Counted from the stretch's first letter, positions 1,206-15,152 are shown. The stretch: 64,000 nucleotides of DNA from Patellaria atrata CBS 101060 (GCA_010093705.1 MU006094.1:1401550-1465549); one strand, 5' to 3'. Notes: a model not told the origin generated them from the letters alone. Translations and numbers: made by a program.

Positions 1206-1474
1206 TATATAAAGTCAAGAAACTCCGGATATCACATATCATACAATCGAAAAAGTCCAGCAAACGCACAGCGCAGACCACTTTTAGTCTTCCAACGCCA
1301 ATAACAGCTGGTAAGCTCTTCTAACATACCTTTTTCTATCATCCCTCTGCGCCATTCCCCCGCTCCTTTACCCCTTCCTTCTCTCCTCCTTCTCATCTCT
1401 CCCCACACGTCTAACTCCTCCCGCTTCCGTCTTTGCTCTTTTACATCTCTTACCCTCCAACTGACCGTAACCAG
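1206..1474 (+). promoter_or_regulatory. TATA box and probable 5'-UTR intron of the small secreted protein gene
   Basis: TATATAAA at 1206-1213. GTAAGC donor at 1311, pyrimidine-rich interior, CTGAC branch at 1461, CAG acceptor ending 1474, 18 nt upstream of the ATG at 1493. Confidence 0.55.
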
Positions 1475-1492
1475 CACCACCCAACAGCGACA

Positions 1493-1858
1493 ATGCTTCT
1501 CACCAAAACCCTCTCTCTCCTCCTTCTCCCGTCTCTCGGCCTCGGCTACGCAATCCAATGCTACACCGACGAGAACTGCACCGGAGGAGCCGGGGCGGTT
1601 CGCGAGGTACCCTCAAACAGCAACATTTGCATCTCGACCTCTGGGCGTAAATCGTGTAAAGTCCACGGCGGCAACGGGATTATCATGCGCGTGGTTGGGG
1701 GAAACCAGTGCGGTGCGTACGATGTGGGATTGGGCTGCGCGACGGGTGGAGGCTGTATCAATCTGATGCATCCCTTTGGAAACTACTATCCATATCATCG
1801 TGTGGATATCAGTAGTCCGACACTTTGTTGGGCGGGGCGGAAGTTTAAGTTTACTTGA
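1493..1858 (+). CDS. Small secreted cysteine-rich protein (121 aa, 8 Cys), effector-like, no recognisable family
   Basis: ACAATG start. Signal-peptide-like MLLTKTLSLLLLPSLGLGYA followed by a Gly-rich mature region with 8 Cys. Upstream TATA. Confidence 0.75.
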   Translation: MLLTKTLSLLLLPSLGLGYAIQCYTDENCTGGAGAVREVPSNSNICISTSGRKSCKVHGGNGIIMRVVGGNQCGAYDVGLGCATGGGCINLMHPFGNYYPYHRVDISSPTLCWAGRKFKFT

Positions 1859-3086: not shown

Positions 3087-3548
3087 TTAAGATCCGGGTG
3101 GGCATAGATATGATGGCATCTTCAATCCTGGGTTTCGGCGTGACTCGGGTGGGAAGAACCAGTCATCAATATTCTGAGGATCTGTTCCATTTGATTGTGG
3201 GGCAGAAGTGCTCGAAGGGGGTTGCAGATGGTCTGGCATTTTCACCTTTGCATCTCGGCGAGATTCAGGAGGGAAGAACCAATCATCAATACTCTGAGGA
3301 GTAGACCCGTTAGCTTGTGGAGCCTCATAAGAGGTCCCAGAAGGTGGTTGAAGATGGTCGGGCATTTTAGCATTAGGATCGCGGCGTGATTCTGGGGGGA
3401 AGAACCAATCATCTATGCTTTGCGGAGTAAGGGGTCCTTTCTCTCCCGGTGCTGTAGTGTTTGAAGGAGGCTGTAGATGATCGGGCATTTTAGCATCAGG
3501 ATCTCGACGTGATGCTGGAGGGAAAAACCAGTCATCGATGGACTGTGG
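3087..3548 (-). repeat. Four tandem coding repeats (40-42 aa period, 29-aa conserved core PQSIDDWFFPPESRRDxxxKMPDHLQPPS) at the DOX-CYP C-terminus
   Basis: Visible in the translation of ORF 3087-4148. The amino-acid core is conserved while synonymous positions differ between copies. Confidence 0.95.
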
Positions 3549-6500
3549 TTTTGGTGCAGTTGGCTGAGATGTTCCGGCCGCGGGTGGCGTCGAACCTAAG
3601 GATGGTTGAACAGCTGCCCCAGACGCTGGAGGCTGCCCTGTCGTTCCAGATGGCTGAGCGCTAGTCGAGGATGTTGTCCCTAAATGACCTGTTGCAGGTC
3701 TAGAAGAGGTTCCAGATGCAGGGCCCGTAGTTGTCGAAGGTGCTGTACCCGAAGATGGCGCCGTAGTAGACGCTGGGGTAATACCTGACGGTGTCGTCCC
3801 AGAGGCTACAGTTCCCGATGGTGTGCTTTCTGAGGGAGCTGTACCGGAGGGAGCTGTACCAGACGATGGAGCAGTGCCTTGTCCGGAGGAGGTCCCCGCG
3901 CCAGCTTGGGTTGGAATGAGAGGTGTACCCAAAGGCGCACCAGAACCAGGAGCTTTCAAACCAGTCTTAAAGGCTGGGTCTTCTGTCTGCTTCGAGCCAG
4001 CAATGGTTACACTCTTGGGCCCTTCATTGTCCTGGTTCTTGAGAGAGTTGTAGACTGCAGTGAGGTCATGACCTGCTGCAGTAGACTGTCCATTAAGATG
4101 AGCAACTCCTTTACCAATGCCATCGTAGTGTAATTTCCATGCTAGCAATTGTCAATACAGGATATGATTTCCAGAAGTTGAACTCACTTGTAGGGTCAAA
4201 AGTTAACCAGGACCAGCTATCATCCAAATAGCAACGCTCAGTGCCGACTTGAATACTCTTCAGTTCTCCCATTTGTCCTGGAGCAGGTCTGACATTTTTC
4301 AAACTTGCAACGACTTCTAGGAGACCCACACAATATGTGATCGAGATTTCTTTGCCAAGACATTCATGAGGACCATAACCAAAATGAATGTACGCGTCAG
4401 AAGACCTTCCAGGTGTAAACTTATCCGGTTCTGGCACAGCTGCGGGATCTAAACCTGCGGGTCCCTTTCAAATGTTAGAGTATGCTAGCGTTGATGACCG
4501 TTGGTTCTACTAACCAACAAACAGATAACTGCATCACCAGGTTTAAATTTCTGTCCATCGATCTCTACAGGGGCAGCGCAGACCCGTAAGTTACGTTGTC
4601 GACTAGTTAGACGTTGCGCTTCGAGTACATATTCACGAACGATCTTATCGGTAGTTGGGCCTCCAGAAGCAACAACATCCTGAATCTTTTCCCAATGATC
4701 GGAATTTTCTGGTAACAGGAAAAACTGTAGTATTTCGGAGAACTAACCATTTTATTAGTAGATAAGAACCGAATCGGGACAAGACAACATACCAAGCCAA
4801 CTGGAACGCCAACTCCTGCGAGGGCTGTAAGCCATACGATGTCTGCAGCTTCGTTGACAGTTTTTCCGTAAGAAAAAAGCTCCTTGACGACCTGCTGTCC
4901 GTACCATCTCAAAGAACCTGTAGTGACCTGAGAGACTGCAGTAGTTTTCCAGGGTAACTTGAGTATCTGAGGACTGACAACATCGGAAACCAGTTTCTGG
5001 GTAGTTTCAGTAAGGACAGCAGCACCTTCCTGAGCCCAAAGTCGACGCCGAAAGGCCATACCAGGGTCATTGTTGTTGAATCCCCAGACACGAACATTAA
5101 GTAGGTGCTTATACAGTTCCGGAATAGACAAAGTTCCATTTGGATGTTCTGGACCTTTGAGATCTAGACAGAACAAGTCTCCTAGAACCTGTGTATTGAC
5201 TGGGATAGCAATGCTTCGAATTATTAGCTGTATTTCTTCAGTAACTGATAAGCGTGGAGACTTACTCCTTTAATATATTAATTTGATTCAAATCACGGGC
5301 CATCTCGAACGTATTGACTTTGAGAAGAGAAGCAGCGGTATTCCTGACGAAGTTCAAAAGTAATTGTGGGAAGTCACTAGGTCCATAGAGAATACCCTTC
5401 AATAGTGCTCGTTGAGCCGAGTTCTTAGGAGCATCCCCACCGAGCATAAAATCAGAGTAGTCTTTCTTACCAGGGAAAAGATCGTTGAGAGCCGGAAGCC
5501 AAGGAACACGAAAGGACGTCTGATCCTTTAAGACCTTAGTGATGATGGCATGCTTTGTCAAGACTATTGGTTTTGGTGGTGGTTTTGGCCCTGCAAGAGT
5601 GTATTGATTGATAGTACCAATCTCTTCGGCTATTTGCTTGTTCATCTTCCACGTGAACATTGGTTGCATAATGTGCAAGCTATTATACGGATACCATCCT
5701 GGCACAGCCCGTTGGAAGAGCTTGTAAAACATAGAGCCTCCGAGTCTGCATTGCATCAGTCATAAATTTTAGTGGTAGTGTAGTGAAAGTCGTACACTTT
5801 GTAATCTTGTTGCACTTCTTGCATTCCCCAATTAGTCAATGTTGCCGGGGTATAGTCCTTCCTACGATTAGTTTCGACACCGTAATGCAGCTATGTACTT
5901 ACAATTGTGTAGAATCGATCAGACCGAACCAAGGTGATGGCATCGGAGAACACGGCGCGTCCTACAGTATACGGTGGACAACCGCCACAACCGGGATCCA
6001 TTCGAGGCTTTGCATCTTCAAGGAATAGACCAGGGTATAATTCTACCATGTCGGGAGAGTCGTAGAGATGGCGTAAAAGATTAGCAATTTCTGGATCTGA
6101 ATTAATGTCTTCCATTCGCTGATGACGGGTCAGTCCAAAAAAGTCACGGAATTCGTTGAGAGATGCCATGCGCCTAGAGTAATGTTATAGTAGTATCATA
6201 TGCACAGGAATGGATCGAGTAATACCATTTACGAGATTGCAAAATACCGAGTATTTCTACTACCTTAAGCGCTTTAGGTACCATCCTAGCACCGAATAAG
6301 CCTAGAATAATAGGTCAGTTATGATTGGAATCAATAGAAGTATGAGACGTACCAGCGGGGTCTTCCATTGCTGCAGTCATAACATTAACCAGGTCTTCGT
6401 CTTTAAATCGGCCGTCCGACCCACGTTGCAAACCAGCAAATTCGCGCTTGCTAGGATCTGGGTCAATATTTTGCTCGTATCTTAGCAAACCTTGTAGAAG

Positions 6501-8807
6501 TTCCTGAGGGGTTAGTTCACTAAGCTTCTTGTTGATGCCTGGAAACAGGCTGAGAAGGAACTCTTCGAGCCACTTCTCGTCGCGCAAAGAGATTGTGGAG
6601 TGGAAGCGATACAGCAGATTGAACTCTGCAGATACTTGATTACCGATGCCTCGTGGTACTTCGTCCCCATTGAGTTTCTTGATCTCGACACGAGGATCAA
6701 TTGTCCAAGAGCTTGCCGAATGATGCGTATTGGTTAGACCACGAAGGTAGTCATGCAAAGAAATATTGCAGTAAAGACCGTTGACAATCCTACGAATACA
6801 TATTAGTGAATGAACCAGTGCAGGCGAGTCCCTTCTAATTCACTTACAATCTTGCGGTTTGGAACAAATCGTTGTCTTGTTTAGCAATAGCAGCCTTCTT
6901 TTCTTCTTCATTCCTTGTGGGTGGAAGAGTGAAGCGGCCACCTTCATTGATCTTGAGCAGCATTTCTGCGACATAATTGTGGAATCGACTATACATGACA
7001 AGAACAACATTAATACCAGGGGGTTGAGCTAGCAAGCGTTTCTCGTGGAAAGTATCCGGTTTCAGCATACCACGTTCCATAGTCCGAATTTCTAGTTGAT
7101 CCTTGAGGCTCGAGCCATAGAGCGGGGCAAGATCTAAATACGATGAGGTGTCCGAAATATCAGGATTGAGACGGTTAGTCCTAAAAATATCTGATCTTGT
7201 TAACATACAGGTTGGATTGATAGGTCCGTTATTCTACATACCATGGATAATGATAGTCGCGTGGTAGAAGAGGACAGTGGATATACCTGCTGGATTCTCC
7301 TTGAACTTGCCCTCAGGCCTCGCCATGAGCACTAAAAAGCCATCAGGAACCACACCTGTATGCACAGATTTACTTGAACTCACTGTCGAATAAGAGGGCT
7401 GGATCAGGGCGAACACCATGGAGCTTCCCTACTCTCCTCGCGGTTCTTGCGTATGGTGTGCCGGCTTTTCCCAGATCAGGGTATAGGACATTCTAGGAGC
7501 GTCTTAGTCTGATATTTTAAGCGCTACACAAATCATGACCTACATTATAACTACCGTCTGGAGTCCGATATTGGAATTTGTCTCCTTGATAGCTTAAAGG
7601 CGGATGTTGGAGACTATTCCATAACCCCTCGATCATGATGTTAGTGAGTTGCTTTCGGGCTTTGCTGTTTGGGGGAAGGGACCCGGCAATCGCCACTATC
7701 TTTTCCATCTACGTATTGTTAGCAAGAAACGCACAAAGTGCCCAACATACTTACGGCCAAATCCTTGTCATTTATAGGCTTGCCTTTGGAAAAAGCGAAC
7801 TCTAACAGAGTTTTGATATCACCGCGAGCTACCTTTAATCCGACAGCTTTCAAATCTTGCACTACAGTTGAAGGTGTAGTATCTACACTTCCGTATGCGG
7901 CATCGACATCAAACTTGTCTCCACTAGACGGTTTAGGCTTTGTAGCCTGACCAATGCCTAACCATCCAAGCCCAGCGAGAATGAAAGACGGGAGCTTTGG
8001 GAGACCCGGAAGACTCGGAAATGGGATCTTTTTGAAGAGGGCAAAAATCCAACTGAATGGATTCCATGACAAGGACGAAATAGGCTTTATACCCGGGATC
8101 GAAATATGTGGGCTTGAAAGTGACCCCGGTAATTTGGGTGTTGAGATGCCCGAAGATGATAGATGTGGAGTTGACAAGTGCGGAATGGATAAGTGTGGAG
8201 CGGACCAATGGGGGGTGGAGAGGGAGAAATGCGGTGCTTTCAACTTAGGAACTGTGAATCCGTAGCCATTCGCGCTCACTTTCGGCCTTGTCAAGCCCGG
8301 GGAAGTAACGCTAAATCCAGGTAACCTCTTGCCCCCGAAGCCCAGCAACTTGTACAGCAGGTAAGCGATCGCAGCAAGCCCAAACACAACTTTTGCCTCC
8401 CTGTTAGATACAATTGTGGGGAGATACTTTGCGATAAGAGCGAATCTGCTTTCCCAGTGATCGATTGACTGTTTCAAGTTCAAAATCCATCCTTTCGTAG
8501 TAAGAAGATGATCACGCCATGTCAAAGTAGGCGCCGAAGAGCCGCTGAACAATGATCGAACCTTCGATTTCTTTAGCGTAGAGTTCGTCGGAGCTGTTGA
8601 TAGACCAAGTTTGGCGGTGATAAGGGGTTCAATGATGAGAGAGGTAATGGCGATCAAGTATTTCAGGGTTTTAGAGAATGGATGGACGGCATCAACCTTG
8701 ACCTCAGCAGTACCATTCAGAGGTAATGTTGTACTGTTAAGGGGTGCTGCTGTGCCATTCAAGTGGGCCGCTGAACCATTCTCAGATGGGGATATTGAGA
8801 TAGCCAT
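3087..8807 (-). CDS. Fatty-acid dioxygenase (heme peroxidase)-cytochrome P450 fusion, Ppo/LDS/DOX-AOS family; about 13 introns, roughly 1,650-1,700 aa with long N- and C-terminal extensions
   Basis: Spliced exons give LQHPPLSY..YRTPDGSYNN, HATIIIHDIFRT (distal His), SSYLDLAPLYG, HDYLR, EFNLLYRFHS (catalytic Tyr, proximal His), ASLNEFR and VELYPG. The P450 part has EAQRL (ExxR) and HFGYGPHECLG (heme Cys). The last intron 4142-4187 joins FDPT|TWKLHYDG to the 3087-4141 exon. Confidence 0.93.
8094..8240 (-). repeat. Low-complexity (S/T/I/A)PH(L/F/W/I)S pentapeptide repeats in the DOX-CYP N-terminal extension
   Basis: KAPHFSLSTPHWSAPHLSIPHLSTPHLSSSGISTPKLPGSLSSPHISIP in exon 1. Confidence 0.7.
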
Positions 8808-10652: not shown

Positions 10653-12214
10653 ATGGCAGCGGCTCAAGCCTCGCACACCGATACTCAGAGACGTCTCGTT
10701 CTCTGTTTTGACGGTACCGGCAATACCTTTAAGGGGGATGCTTCTGATACCAATGTTGTCAAGATATTTCAGATGTTGGACCGTAAGAATGCGGAGCAGT
10801 TTCATTACTACCAACGTGAGTTTACATTTTTCAACATTGCGCCCTTTGGAGTTTAAAGTTAGGTGGTATACCTATTAACTCGTTTCTTCAGCCGGAATTG
10901 GTACCTACATCGAAGGGAAGGTAGCTACGTCGCAAACCTTACTTAGAAAAATCATCACGAAGATTAGCACTTCCATTGACGAAGCGATTGGAACAACCTT
11001 CGCCGATCATGTCACCGCCGGGTACAGATTTCTCATGCGATACTATGCCGAGGGAGACTCCATCTACATCTTTGGATTCTCACGTGGTGCTTATACAGCC
11101 CGCTTTTTGGCGGAAATGATACACTCCATCGGTCTGCTTTCGCGGGGAAATGAGGAGATGGTTCAACTTGCATGGAAAACGTTCAGCAAGTTCCAACAAA
11201 CTCGAGGTCATACCCCTTTGACCAAGGCGGACCTTGAGCGCCGTGATTATATGGTCAAATTTAAGCAAACTTTCTGCCGTCTCAAGGTCAACATTCATTT
11301 TCTCGGACTCTTTGACTGTGTCAATAGCGTTGGTCAATTCGAGATCCCTCTATTCCGCAAATCTTATGAGGTCATCGCGAAACCTCCGGCAACACATATC
11401 AGACATGCTGTATCCATTCACGAGCGACGTTTGAAGTTCAAACCTGCATTATTCCTCTATGATAATGCCTCACCTCAAAGGGATATCGTCGAGGCGTGGT
11501 TCACCGGGAATCACGGTGATGTCGGTGGTGGATGGAATTATGAAAAAGGGGAAGAACATTTGCTCTCTGATACACCACTTGTCTGGATGGTCAATGAAGT
11601 CCTGCATTTACCAGGCGACAAGGCCAAATTGGCATTCAAGACCACTTCGGTAGAAAAACGAGCTCAAGAAGAAATAAAGTTTCAAAAGGACCTGAAGGCA
11701 ACTTTGACCGCTTCCGTACCCCGGAAACATAACTTTCGCATGCACGATATGCTTAGTTTTGGGATGGGAGTATCATGGTTTGCAACTTTAATGTGGTGGA
11801 TTCTTGGTGAGTTTGTCTACGGTAATGTTCATGGTATCATTTCTAATCCAACTAGAACTTCTCCCCTTCTTTGCGCGCCTCGAGCTTGAAAACGGTAAAT
11901 GGATACCCAGACATTTCCCTCCCAATCTAGGTGCTCCAAGAGATATACCGAAGGGCGCAAATATCCACAAAAGTGTCTACGAGTTACATCAAGCCGGTTA
12001 TCTCACAGACGAGCAATTACCAAAAATGGGAGGCAATAACCCACACATCAATCCTACCGGGGCGCTTTTCGCTTGGACTCAGAAGCGTAGTGCCGCACAG
12101 CAAGCCGCACAGAAAAGTTTGGAGCTTACAAAACCGTTAGCTAATGGAGCTCTAGCGAATGGATTTGCCCATGCGGCAATTCCAAGAGGAGACGTCAAAG
12201 GTCTTACGGGATGA
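10653..12214 (+). CDS. DUF2235 / Tle1-like alpha/beta-hydrolase (putative phospholipase); introns 10816-10891 and 11807-11855
   Basis: Motifs RRLVLCFDGTGN, DTNVVK, YYQ|PGIGTY, FGFSRGAYTAR (GxSxG nucleophile), FLGLFDCVNSV, RHAVSIHERR and EAWFTGNHGDVGGG. Splicing restores the reading frame. Confidence 0.9.
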
Positions 12215-13878: not shown

Positions 13879-15152
13879 ATGGCCCTCGGCGCTACCATCA
13901 GCAAGGTTACCGATATACACCCTCAATCGTATATCGGTGGCTTCCAGTTCAACAATGGAAGAAGCTATGTGAGTACCTCCAGCACAAGTGGTTTAAAACA
14001 ACTGATTAATAGTTTGTAGCGTATCTTCTACCAAACCAAAGCCGGCGTAATGAATGCTGTCGCTACTGACAACTGGGGTGATAGCTGGTATGGAGGAGAT
14101 GGTCAGGCCGTTTCCAATCAAGCCATTGTCCCCACACCGATAGCTTCTTGCATCTACACTGATAAAAATGGCGTAAGATTTCCGCCTTCTCACGTTTCAT
14201 TCACTCCAAAGCTAAATTCGTACCAAGGCTGCGTCTCGCACATTCTACATCGGAAAGGACTACAAAGTTCGCTGCTTCGGTGTCGGATCCTCCGCCGGTT
14301 GGGCAGGTGGAGATCGCGCTGTCAGTGACTTTACCGTGGCTCAGTTTAGCAAAATCGGGGCTTTGAGCTTCATCGACGGCCAGAACCAAGGGCATCTCCG
14401 GTGGGCAACATCCTCCTCTTCCTTTAGCTATGTCTAACTGAGATTGTCCCACTAACCCTACCTCCTGAGATTGTCCTGCTAACCCTACCTGCAGAGTCTA
14501 CGTCCAGGGTCCTGACAGTCGTATACAGGAGCTCTGCTGGGATGGTAATGGTGGAAATCTCACCCTCGGGCATAAGTTTCCCGCCCCTCTGCAAGGCACC
14601 TCTCTCGCGTTCTATAACAAAGCCCCTAAGGGTACTGGTCCTAGCTTCCGCGGCTACTATCAGAACTGGGACAAGACTCTTCTCGAAATCATCTATGAGT
14701 CTGACGGAAAGTCATGGCGTGGAGGTAAATAATCTCACTAAGTGACCCCTCTCATACTTTAATCTAGTGACACTAACGTAAATCCCCTAGGGCCAAGCAT
14801 CAACGGTGGCAAAGCGGTCGACCCAGGCACACACATCTCCGCCTGCGTCTCCTCTACTGGTGCCGAAGCTCAGTACTGGTCTTCTCATAGCGGCAACGTG
14901 ACACAAATCTTCGAGCGCTTCTTCGACAAGACTTGGCACACGTCGCAGGAAGGCCACCCCATCTTGCCCTGCTGCTCCCCAAACAACCCGAGGTTCCTAG
15001 CAACGTGCCATGTCCCGGATAACACGACGCAGACGAGGATCCGCATCTTTTTTGTGGGTGTTAATGGCGGGTTGCATGAGGCGAGGAGAGAGAATGATCA
15101 TTGGGGCTGGGGTGGGCAGAATGGGGGACAGTATACTTGGCAGAAGGTATAG
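13879..15152 (+). CDS. Fungal fucose-specific-lectin-like (AAL/FleA-type) beta-propeller protein, 5 exons, no signal peptide
   Basis: Introns 13969-14019, 14173-14227, 14401-14494 and 14725-14790 give one frame with repeated blades RIFYQ, RTFYIG, LRVYVQGPDSRIQELCWDG, FRGYYQ..LLEIIY..W and IRIFFVGVNGGLHE..W. Confidence 0.7.
14438..14490 (+). repeat. Tandem 26-bp duplication (24/26 identical) of the branch-point region inside lectin intron 3
   Basis: ctgagattgtcccactaaccctacct (14438-14463) and ctgagattgtcctgctaaccctacct (14465-14490). Confidence 0.85.

What the first reader, a model, noticed from the sequence alone, without database searches (positions are those of the whole stretch)
3087..4187. 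DOX-P450 fusion with a spliced-on tail ending in four conserved 'IDDWFFPPESRR' peptide repeats
Seen: the normal P450 end (FDPT|TWKLHYDG) continues in frame for about 340 aa. A S/T/P/G/A-rich linker is followed by four copies of a 29-aa core (PQSIDDWFFPPESRRDxxxKMPDHLQPPS) with variable spacers. Core residues are conserved while codons have diverged, which suggests selection on the peptide. Known: characterised Ppo/LDS/DOX-AOS enzymes are about 1,100 aa and end shortly after this strand; I know of no such tail. Inference, three options: (a) an enzyme-fused, multi-core RiPP-like precursor (architecture analogous to borosins), with aromatic W-F-F-P-P cores next to a dibasic RR and within reach of a Tyr-radical/P450 oxidase; (b) a multivalent docking array (acidic DDW motifs resemble fungal Arp2/3-binding A motifs; FPP resembles proline-rich ligands); (c) an autoregulatory tail. 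Retaining the 46-nt last intron would give a tail-less product stopping at 4111.
Basis: partly seen in the sequence, partly recalled or inferred. Interest (0 to 1): 0.8.

Follow-up and report, generated by a model that had tools for sequence, protein, structure and literature searches.

The report
Repeat-tailed fungal fatty-acid oxygenase
A fungal enzyme of the kind that makes fat-derived signals ends in a long floppy tail with four copies of an undescribed short motif that related fungi also keep, most likely a docking tag rather than the precursor of a peptide natural product.

Summary
A 14-exon minus-strand gene (8807-3087) gives an unbroken 1,688-aa dioxygenase-P450 fusion. Its last exon holds the final P450 strand, a Ser/Thr/Pro/Gly/Ala linker and four 29-aa repeats under purifying selection (pN/pS 0.19). 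Active-site motifs place the enzyme with the 9-DOX-allene oxide synthases.

The repeat is not private to this genome. A related unit, W-[FY]-[FYW]-x3-S-x-R-[DN]-x4-M-P-x4-P-P, sits in two or three copies at the same place in Helotiales orthologues and in unnamed fragments. All eight repeat-bearing rows of the tree fall in one branch. Other orthologues carry H-type lectin domains or unrelated tails there.

There is no signal peptide, and no peptidase or UstYa gene was found nearby. A RiPP precursor or Arp2/3 ligand is therefore unlikely.

Best reading: a tethered, multivalent docking motif in an exchangeable C-terminal slot. Its partner is unknown, and no transcript across the junction was seen for a repeat-bearing gene. 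It is a new variant of a known enzyme family, of moderate interest.

The parts
3087..8807 (-). DOX-CYP gene, 14 exons, 1,688 aa (9-DOX-AOS type by motifs)
   Evidence: Exon model with GT-AG introns gives one open frame; core 63-76% identical to 28 fungal DOX-CYP proteins
7755..8807 (-). Exon 1: about 350-aa N-terminal region with two hydrophobic stretches (8657-8601, 8390-8334) and P-H-[FWLI]-S pentapeptide repeats (8237-8097); no signal-peptide-like start
   Evidence: Hydropathy scan, motif scan, coordinates; start codon inferred
5577..7408 (-). Heme dioxygenase domain: distal His472 (7245-7243), catalytic Tyr647 (6611-6609), central and terminal motifs as listed for 9R-DOX
   Evidence: Motif positions against Table 2 of PMC13049297; PF03098 on homologues and in the genome search
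4122..5576 (-). P450 domain: RxxxFN, ExxR, SxQR, heme Cys1280 (4362-4360); its last strand lies in exon 14
   Evidence: against Table 3 of PMC13049297; strand 1070-1073 with pLDDT about 90 in the model of homologue P0026
4142..4187 (-). Last intron, 46 nt, joining FDPT to TWKLHY
   Evidence: Sequence; donor 3.7 bits (second weakest of 13), acceptor 7.4 bits (fourth of 13) on a crude matrix; same junction in homologues
3999..4121 (-). Conserved post-P450 extension (G.GKGV, then a D-L-x-x-[VI] helix and GP.[SG]V) shared with non-repeat orthologues
   Evidence: helix 1094-1112 at pLDDT 55-62 in homologue model
3549..3983 (-). Low-complexity linker, about 83% S/T/P/G/A
   Evidence: a 15-bp two-copy DNA repeat lies at 3832-3860
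3462..3548 (-). Repeat core 1 (29 aa)
   Evidence: 28.8 bits against a profile built from Helotiales units only
3339..3425 (-). Repeat core 2
   Evidence: 29.4 bits
3213..3299 (-). Repeat core 3
   Evidence: 29.1 bits
3093..3179 (-). Repeat core 4, most diverged, ending LCPP just before the stop at 3089-3087
   Evidence: 15.8 bits

Best explanation
The gene encodes a membrane-associated, non-secreted 9-dioxygenase-allene oxide synthase-type oxylipin enzyme. After the last P450 strand it has an exchangeable C-terminal slot. In one branch of the family that slot holds 2-4 copies of a short motif on a disordered tether. The motif most likely folds on binding and docks the enzyme, with avidity, onto a partner protein or membrane site, deciding where and when the oxylipin is made without changing the chemistry. 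Shown: exon structure, selection on the repeat, conservation in orthologues, H-type lectin in the same slot elsewhere. Inferred: product, docking role. Unknown: the partner.
For: Purifying selection among the four copies, pN/pS 0.19. A related unit stands in 11 other proteins: 8 full-length DOX-CYP models from Helotiales, one fragment that starts at the same last exon (P0003) and two fragments of unknown context. A profile of 16 Helotiales units alone scores the four window units 89.5 bits in sum. All 8 repeat-bearing rows of a 29-row tree lie in one 14-row branch, SH-aLRT 99. The same slot holds H-type lectin domains in 4 of the 23 homologues (3 of these 4 rescanned and confirmed), a known binding module, and unrelated low-complexity tails in others. 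Copy number (2, 3, 4) and spacers vary while W, aromatic, S, R, M, P, PP stay, the pattern of a binding motif. The unit has no confident fold of its own (pLDDT 50, pTM 0.18, 8 sequences). The two paralogues in this genome carry no unit, and one stops right after the matching strand. Unbroken 1,140-1,780-aa frames on 4.5-6.4-kb contigs (P0026, P0022, P0048) cross the same junction, which points to spliced transcripts with tails in relatives (inferred).
Against: No partner is identified and no binding is measured. No transcript across the junction was seen for this gene or any repeat-bearing gene; the three transcript-like relatives lack the repeat. 5 of the 14 models in the branch leave the frame at this junction, which is either misannotation or real intron retention, and the donor here is the second weakest of 13. 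The nearest relative with a full tail (P0022) has no repeat, so it is dispensable in at least one lineage. The window's copies lack the P-x-D-L-x-x-[LI]-D-D-[VI] first half found in most foreign units. The low pLDDT may only reflect a shallow alignment.
Confidence: 0.55

Rival explanations
1. Autoregulatory or oligomer-linking tail: the repeats bind the enzyme's own DOX or P450 domain, in cis or across subunits, and gate activity or assembly.
For: Every full-length protein with the unit (8 of 8, plus the window) is a DOX-CYP of one branch; no other host enzyme was seen. Foreign units begin with a D-L-x-x-[LI] helix like the helix that follows the P450 in non-repeat orthologues, and the Helotiales proteins lack that post-P450 helix, a possible substitution. 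The last unit ends in LCPP in the window, P0003 and P0004, which recalls heme-binding CP motifs (recalled).
Against: Orthologues with 63-76% identical cores do without the unit. The Cys is absent from Helotiales last units. The searches for other hosts were insensitive: one search missed three known positives.
Confidence: 0.2
2. Enzyme-fused, multi-core RiPP precursor: the DOX radical or the P450 cross-links the aromatic triad and a protease releases the cores.
For: Architecture like borosins (core fused C-terminal to its enzyme; PMC6514808 passages). An aromatic triad is kept in all units and holds Tyr in the Helotiales. Each window unit has one RR.
Against: WFFPP 0 of 22 and RR 2 of 22 foreign units. 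No signal-peptide-like start, so the Kex2 route of dikaritins is not open (inference). No peptidase or UstYa among 16 of the window's 60 long ORFs scanned; the 9 UstYa matches lie elsewhere, the nearest over 1 Mb away. Fatty-acid site motifs of 9R-DOX and 9-AOS are intact. Other orthologues put a lectin in the same slot.
Confidence: 0.06
3. The docking partner is the actin machinery: DDW binds Arp2/3 or FPP binds an EVH1/WH1-type domain.
For: DDW stands in all four window units; yeast Abp1p uses two DDW sequences to bind Arp2/3 (PMC2190564, start of abstract in listing).
Against: DDW 0 of 22 and Pro at the FPP position 0 of 22 foreign units; only 8 of 22 have an acid just before the Trp. The window's DDW looks like the result of a short deletion in the longer unit.
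Confidence: 0.04
4. The repeats are rarely translated or have no present function here: the main mRNA retains the intron or the tail is tolerated baggage.
For: No RNA junction seen for a repeat-bearing gene; 5 of 14 branch models leave the frame at this junction; weak donor.
Against: pN/pS 0.19 among copies; a 351-codon stop-free exon; conservation over about 30% core divergence; the exon supplies a confident P450 strand.
Confidence: 0.1

Closest known systems
Fungal 9R-DOX-AOS (UniProt Q0CW98) and 9S-DOX-AOS (X0CM68), DOX-CYP/LDS/Ppo family (PMC13049297, Tables 2-3)
   Same: N-terminal heme dioxygenase fused to a P450; central, Tyr and terminal motifs match the 9R-DOX row; RxxxFN at SRS2 as in 9R-AOS; heme Cys and ExxR present.
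   Different: 1,688 aa against 1,050-1,170; about 350-aa N-terminal region and 343-aa tail; SRS4 has Val at the distal position and SRS5 reads SxQR, both as in the 9S-AOS row, so the product cannot be read off; no tail is mentioned in that review.
Uncharacterised DOX-CYP orthologues of Helotiales (Bisporella, Cadophora, Leptodontidium, Leptodophora, Oculimacula; P0011, P0014, P0017, P0018, P0030, P0031, P0033, P0034)
   Same: Sister branch, 66-73% core identity for the 7 in the tree, same last junction, same repeat core.
   Different: Two copies of a longer (about 44-aa) unit with an extra N-terminal helix, plus a degenerate third copy; no post-P450 DL helix; no WFFPP or DDW.
DOX-CYP-H-type-lectin fusions (Trizodia P0019; Diplodia P0024, P0025; Botryosphaeria cluster P0021, P0035)
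   Same: Same core family, same junction, accessory module behind a linker.
   Different: Folded PF09458 domains instead of short repeats.
Borosins (OphA/omphalotin) and dikaritins (UstA) (PMC6514808 passages)
   Same: Peptide region fused behind an enzyme (borosin); repeated units with a dibasic site (dikaritin, window copies only).
   Different: No methyltransferase, no signal peptide, no linked prolyl oligopeptidase or DUF3328 gene found, dibasic site not conserved, enzyme keeps its fatty-acid site.

Membership tests
DOX-CYP (LDS/Ppo) fusion family | N-terminal animal-type heme peroxidase domain with distal His and catalytic Tyr | tested here: met
   His472, Tyr647; PF03098 over cut-off at this locus
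DOX-CYP (LDS/Ppo) fusion family | C-terminal P450 with ExxR and heme-thiolate Cys in the same frame | tested here: met
   PF00067 matched in the homologues scanned
9-DOX-AOS subfamily | 9-DOX central, YxF and terminal motifs; RxxxF/V at SRS2; no NQxQ at SRS4 | tested here: met
   against Tables 2-3
9R-DOX-AOS strictly | Thr at the distal SRS4 position and SMEC at SRS5 | tested here: not met
   Val and SxQR, as in 9S-AOS; the DOX half matches 9R
9-DOX-AOS subfamily | Forms 9-hydroperoxide and allene oxide from C18 fatty acids | not testable with these tools
   Needs enzyme assay
9-DOX-AOS subfamily | Groups with characterised 9R/9S-DOX-AOS in a tree | not tested
   No characterised member was among the sequences held; tree has uncharacterised homologues only
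Borosin RiPP | Core fused to its own SAM-dependent N-methyltransferase | tested here: not met
   Fused enzyme is a DOX-CYP
Borosin RiPP | Linked peptidase for release | tested here: inconclusive
   None among 16 of 60 long ORFs scanned; 4 of the 16 had no Pfam family; the window holds only 3 kb on the 3' side
Dikaritin RiPP | Signal peptide on the precursor | tested here: not met
   Best 8-residue hydropathy near the start 1.09; first hydrophobic stretch at 51-69 (simple scan, not SignalP)
Dikaritin RiPP | Conserved dibasic Kex2 sites around repeated cores | tested here: not met
   RR in 4 of 4 window units but 2 of 22 foreign units
Dikaritin RiPP | UstYa/DUF3328 gene in the cluster | tested here: not met
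   9 matches in the genome, none in or near the window
RiPP of any class | Modified, released peptide product | not testable with these tools
   Needs MS
Arp2/3-binding acidic (DDW) motif | Conserved acidic run ending in Trp | tested here: not met
   DDW 0 of 22 foreign units
Known Pfam repeat or domain | Match of the tail unit to a curated family | tested here: not met
   0 families for P0001 at E up to 1; none over cut-off for P0003, P0004 or the tails of P0011, P0014, P0018; no PDB match

The most novel reading that the evidence does not exclude
The repeats are the enzyme's second substrate: the dioxygenase tyrosyl radical or the peroxide-driven P450 cross-links the invariant aromatic triad (W-F-F here, W-F-Y and W-Y-W in Helotiales) on its own tail, making this branch of oxylipin synthases a fused, multi-core peptide-modifying system with no counterpart among described fungal RiPP classes.
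Probability: 0.06. Interest if true: 0.9.

Novelty: new variant of a known kind. Interest (0 to 1): 0.45.

Why it matters
Fungal DOX-CYP enzymes make oxylipins that steer development and plant-fungus contacts, and they are described as two-domain proteins of 1,050-1,170 aa. This branch, present in root endophytes and plant pathogens among its named members, adds a modular C-terminal slot filled by lectin domains or by an undescribed repeat. If the repeat is a docking motif, it gives a direct handle on how oxylipin synthesis is placed in the cell: a 23-residue core that can be used as bait or mutated at a few invariant positions. It also shows that several public gene models of this branch probably cut the protein short at the last intron. 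It would not change the known chemistry of the family.

Tried and rejected
RNA evidence: no RNA holder listed; the three runs laid gave unspliced contigs and no joints, so they say nothing on splicing. The 298-nt, depth-2.7 piece in run X3 covers part of the repeats at 99% or more under another organism label; too small to use. Complex prediction of the P0011 catalytic core (110-1065) with one repeat: no answer, score 0.01, controls not folded; not used either way. First protein search with the window's repeats among proteins of 616-2,000 aa: 0 of 1,376 candidates, although positives of that length exist, so the tool is insensitive here; the profile search scored 8,000 candidates, found 2 and missed P0014, P0017 and P0018. 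P0002, the top phmmer hit, is a repeat protein with no unit (per-domain E above 1): rejected. DUF3461 on P0003 (E 8.5e-5, below cut-off, 0 significant stretches): rejected. Metagenome contig scans: 42 and 321 pattern matches, none confirmed, so P0004 and P0028 stay without context. ESM Atlas: no usable hit for P0003 or P0028. PDB sequence searches: nothing meaningful. AlphaFold of the two-unit alignment: no confident fold; the DOX half of the P0026 model was also poor, so no fold search was run. The repeat as an internal copy of part of the enzyme: no hit in any core. Other copies in this genome: 1 match, itself (best candidates only). Earlier findings by sequence and words: nothing. The tree's changes count (5) is not meaningful because 5 rows scored as 'no repeat' are truncated models.

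Full report
1. What is in the sequence. The minus strand from 8807 to 3087 can be read as 14 exons with 13 GT-AG introns of 45-58 nt, giving one open frame of 1,688 aa (boundaries set by eye, start codon inferred). The last intron (4187..4142) joins FDPT to TWKLHYDG. Exon 14 is stop-free for 351 codons. It carries the end of the P450, about 40 conserved residues, a linker that is 83% S/T/P/G/A and four 29-aa cores at 3548-3462, 3425-3339, 3299-3213 and 3179-3093. The repeat is far beyond chance (8-aa word four times; at most 4 aa in 2,000 shuffles) and under purifying selection (pooled pS 0.78, pN 0.145).

2. The enzyme. I compared the model with the motif tables of Oliw 2026 (PMC13049297; I read the abstract, sections 4, 28 and 32, the first part of section 3, and term passages). 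The dioxygenase half matches the 9R-DOX row in its central, catalytic-Tyr and terminal motifs. The P450 half has RxxxFN as in 9R-AOS, but Val at the distal SRS4 position and SxQR at SRS5 as in 9S-AOS. It is therefore a 9-DOX-AOS-type enzyme whose exact product is open. That review gives 1,050-1,170 aa for fungal members and does not contain the words repeat, tail or lectin. The N-terminal region has two hydrophobic stretches and no signal-like start, so I infer a membrane-associated, non-secreted protein. The genome has two more genes of the family; neither locus holds the unit, and one paralogue stops right after the matching strand.

3. Is the tail joined? No RNA holder was listed and the runs laid were unspliced contigs, so there is no direct evidence. 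Indirect evidence is good. Of 30 homologous full-length or near-full-length proteins inspected at this point, 25 continue with TW[KRT][LMV] and a conserved G-x-G-[KRQT]-G, and 5 leave the frame exactly at the junction. Fragment P0003 starts with intron-like residues and then AWKLHYEG, as the raw frame does here. In the model of homologue P0026 the residues right after the junction form a strand at pLDDT about 90, so exon 14 completes the P450 fold and intron retention would damage it. Three relatives are unbroken frames of 1,140-1,780 aa on contigs of 4.5-6.4 kb (P0026, P0022, P0048), while Logan members of the P0048 cluster on 23-225-kb contigs are exon-sized pieces. I read these as spliced transcripts; none carries the repeat. 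Against: the donor is the second weakest of 13 on a crude matrix, and the 5 truncated models could reflect real retention.

4. The repeat in other fungi. phmmer over 1.84 billion representatives gave 3 hits, 2 real (P0003, P0004). A search with a P450 exon gave 23 DOX-CYP proteins among 720 candidates; 4 of them carry two units in the tail. Cluster members of 10 proteins added 4 more and a profile search added P0028. In all, 24 units in 11 other proteins. Eight are full-length DOX-CYP models from Helotiales, one is the same last exon, two are fragments without context. The shared core is W-[FY]-[FYW]-x3-S-x-R-[DNE]-x4-M-P-x4-P-P. I picked units with a pattern, so invariance is partly built in; but the same columns are invariant in the plain alignment, the profile found no further good units among the proteins held, and a profile of 16 Helotiales units alone scores the window's four units at 16-29 bits each. 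Most foreign units have an extra first half, P-x-D-L-x-x-[LI]-D-D-[VI], predicted as a helix; the window's copies lack it.

5. Tree. A quick tree of 29 cores (SH-aLRT only, midpoint root, careful search unfinished; trimming failed for 12 rows, but columns filled in under 30% of rows were dropped; P0021, P0023, P0033, P0036, P0048, P0051, P0052, P0055 and fragments left out) puts the window with Periconia, Camillea and P0022, sister to the Helotiales group. This 14-row branch (support 99) holds all 8 repeat-bearing rows. Of its other 6 rows, 5 are the truncated models and one (P0022) has a 370-aa tail without the unit. One gain and at least one loss is the simplest reading; it was not tested against a root. 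Outside the branch the slot holds H-type lectin domains (4 of 23; 3 rescanned), short tails or unrelated low-complexity tails.

6. Among 22 units from 10 other proteins (P0033 left out as a near copy of P0018), WFFPP occurs 0 times, Pro at the fourth position 0, DDW 0 and RR 2. RiPP features taken from a review (PMC6514808, passages) are not met: no methyltransferase, no signal peptide, no conserved dibasic site, no UstYa gene near (9 matches elsewhere), no peptidase among 16 of 60 long ORFs scanned (4 had no family, and only 3 kb lies on the 3' side). The fatty-acid site is intact. The Arp2/3 likeness (Abp1p DDW, PMC2190564, listing and start of abstract only) fails on conservation. What remains is a repeated, conserved, probably disordered motif in a slot that elsewhere holds a binding domain.

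7. Mechanism. I commit to a tethered multivalent docking motif (0.55). The enzyme makes a 9-hydroperoxide and probably an allene oxide (inferred from motifs). The linker lets 2-4 motifs reach a partner; aromatic triad, S-x-R and M-P make the contact (inferred). Binding to the enzyme itself is the main rival (0.2). No present function (0.1), RiPP precursor (0.06) and actin-machinery ligand (0.04) follow. The divergent DUF2235 lipase-like gene at 10879-12214 (PF09994, E 4e-72; also noted in e1-7700884) could supply fatty acid and is a candidate partner, but I could not test whether this neighbourhood is conserved.

8. Novelty. The unit has no Pfam family, no PDB match and no usable Atlas hit. 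Six paper searches on this enzyme family and its tails and one on fused fungal RiPPs showed no description of the tail in their listings. PMC13063583, PMC10219381 and PMC5919972 were seen as term passages only and did not bear on it. The library lacks most subscription journals; Oliw's 2021 review and the primary 9-DOX-AOS papers were not read, and I opened no supplements, where long homologues may be listed. The verdict is a new variant of a known enzyme family with an undescribed conserved repeat: surprising enough for an oxylipin specialist to test, but not a new class of system on present evidence. Interest 0.45.

Noticed in passing
P0019, P0021, P0024, P0025, P0035 (homologues): DOX-CYP proteins with C-terminal H-type lectin domains in Trizodia, Diplodia and Botryosphaeria. 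9R-DOX and AOS activities of the related Lasiodiplodia theobromae are said to lack an assigned gene (PMC10219381 passage); such a fusion is a candidate.
   Followed up: partly
window 8097-8237 (minus): Six P-H-[FWLI]-S pentapeptides in the N-terminal region; Diplodia and Botryosphaeria homologues have similar P-[HK]-L-[SP] stretches. Function unexplained.
   Followed up: partly
P0011 1095, P0014 1186, P0017 1175, P0018 1289, P0031 1218, P0034 1186: A conserved W-x-W-[IV]-P-S-S-K...PP segment upstream of the two Helotiales units keeps the unit's register and may be a degenerate third copy.
   Followed up: partly
window 10879-12214 (plus): DUF2235/PF09994 lipase-like gene divergent from the DOX-CYP gene, about 2 kb or less from its start; possible oxylipin module.
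   Followed up: partly
P0005, P0006, P0015, P0016, P0029, P0049: Public gene models that leave the frame at the FDPT junction and so lose the last P450 strand and any tail; probably misannotated, possibly retained-intron forms.
   Followed up: partly
window 5858, 5214, 4465 (minus): Three of 13 introns in the model end in AAG rather than YAG.
   Followed up: no
window 1415-1858 (plus): Small Cys-rich ORF with a signal-like start, tail-to-tail with the DOX-CYP gene; no Pfam family.
   Followed up: no
window 14763-15152 (plus): ORF without a Pfam family whose repeats recall a fungal beta-propeller lectin (recalled, not tested).
   Followed up: no
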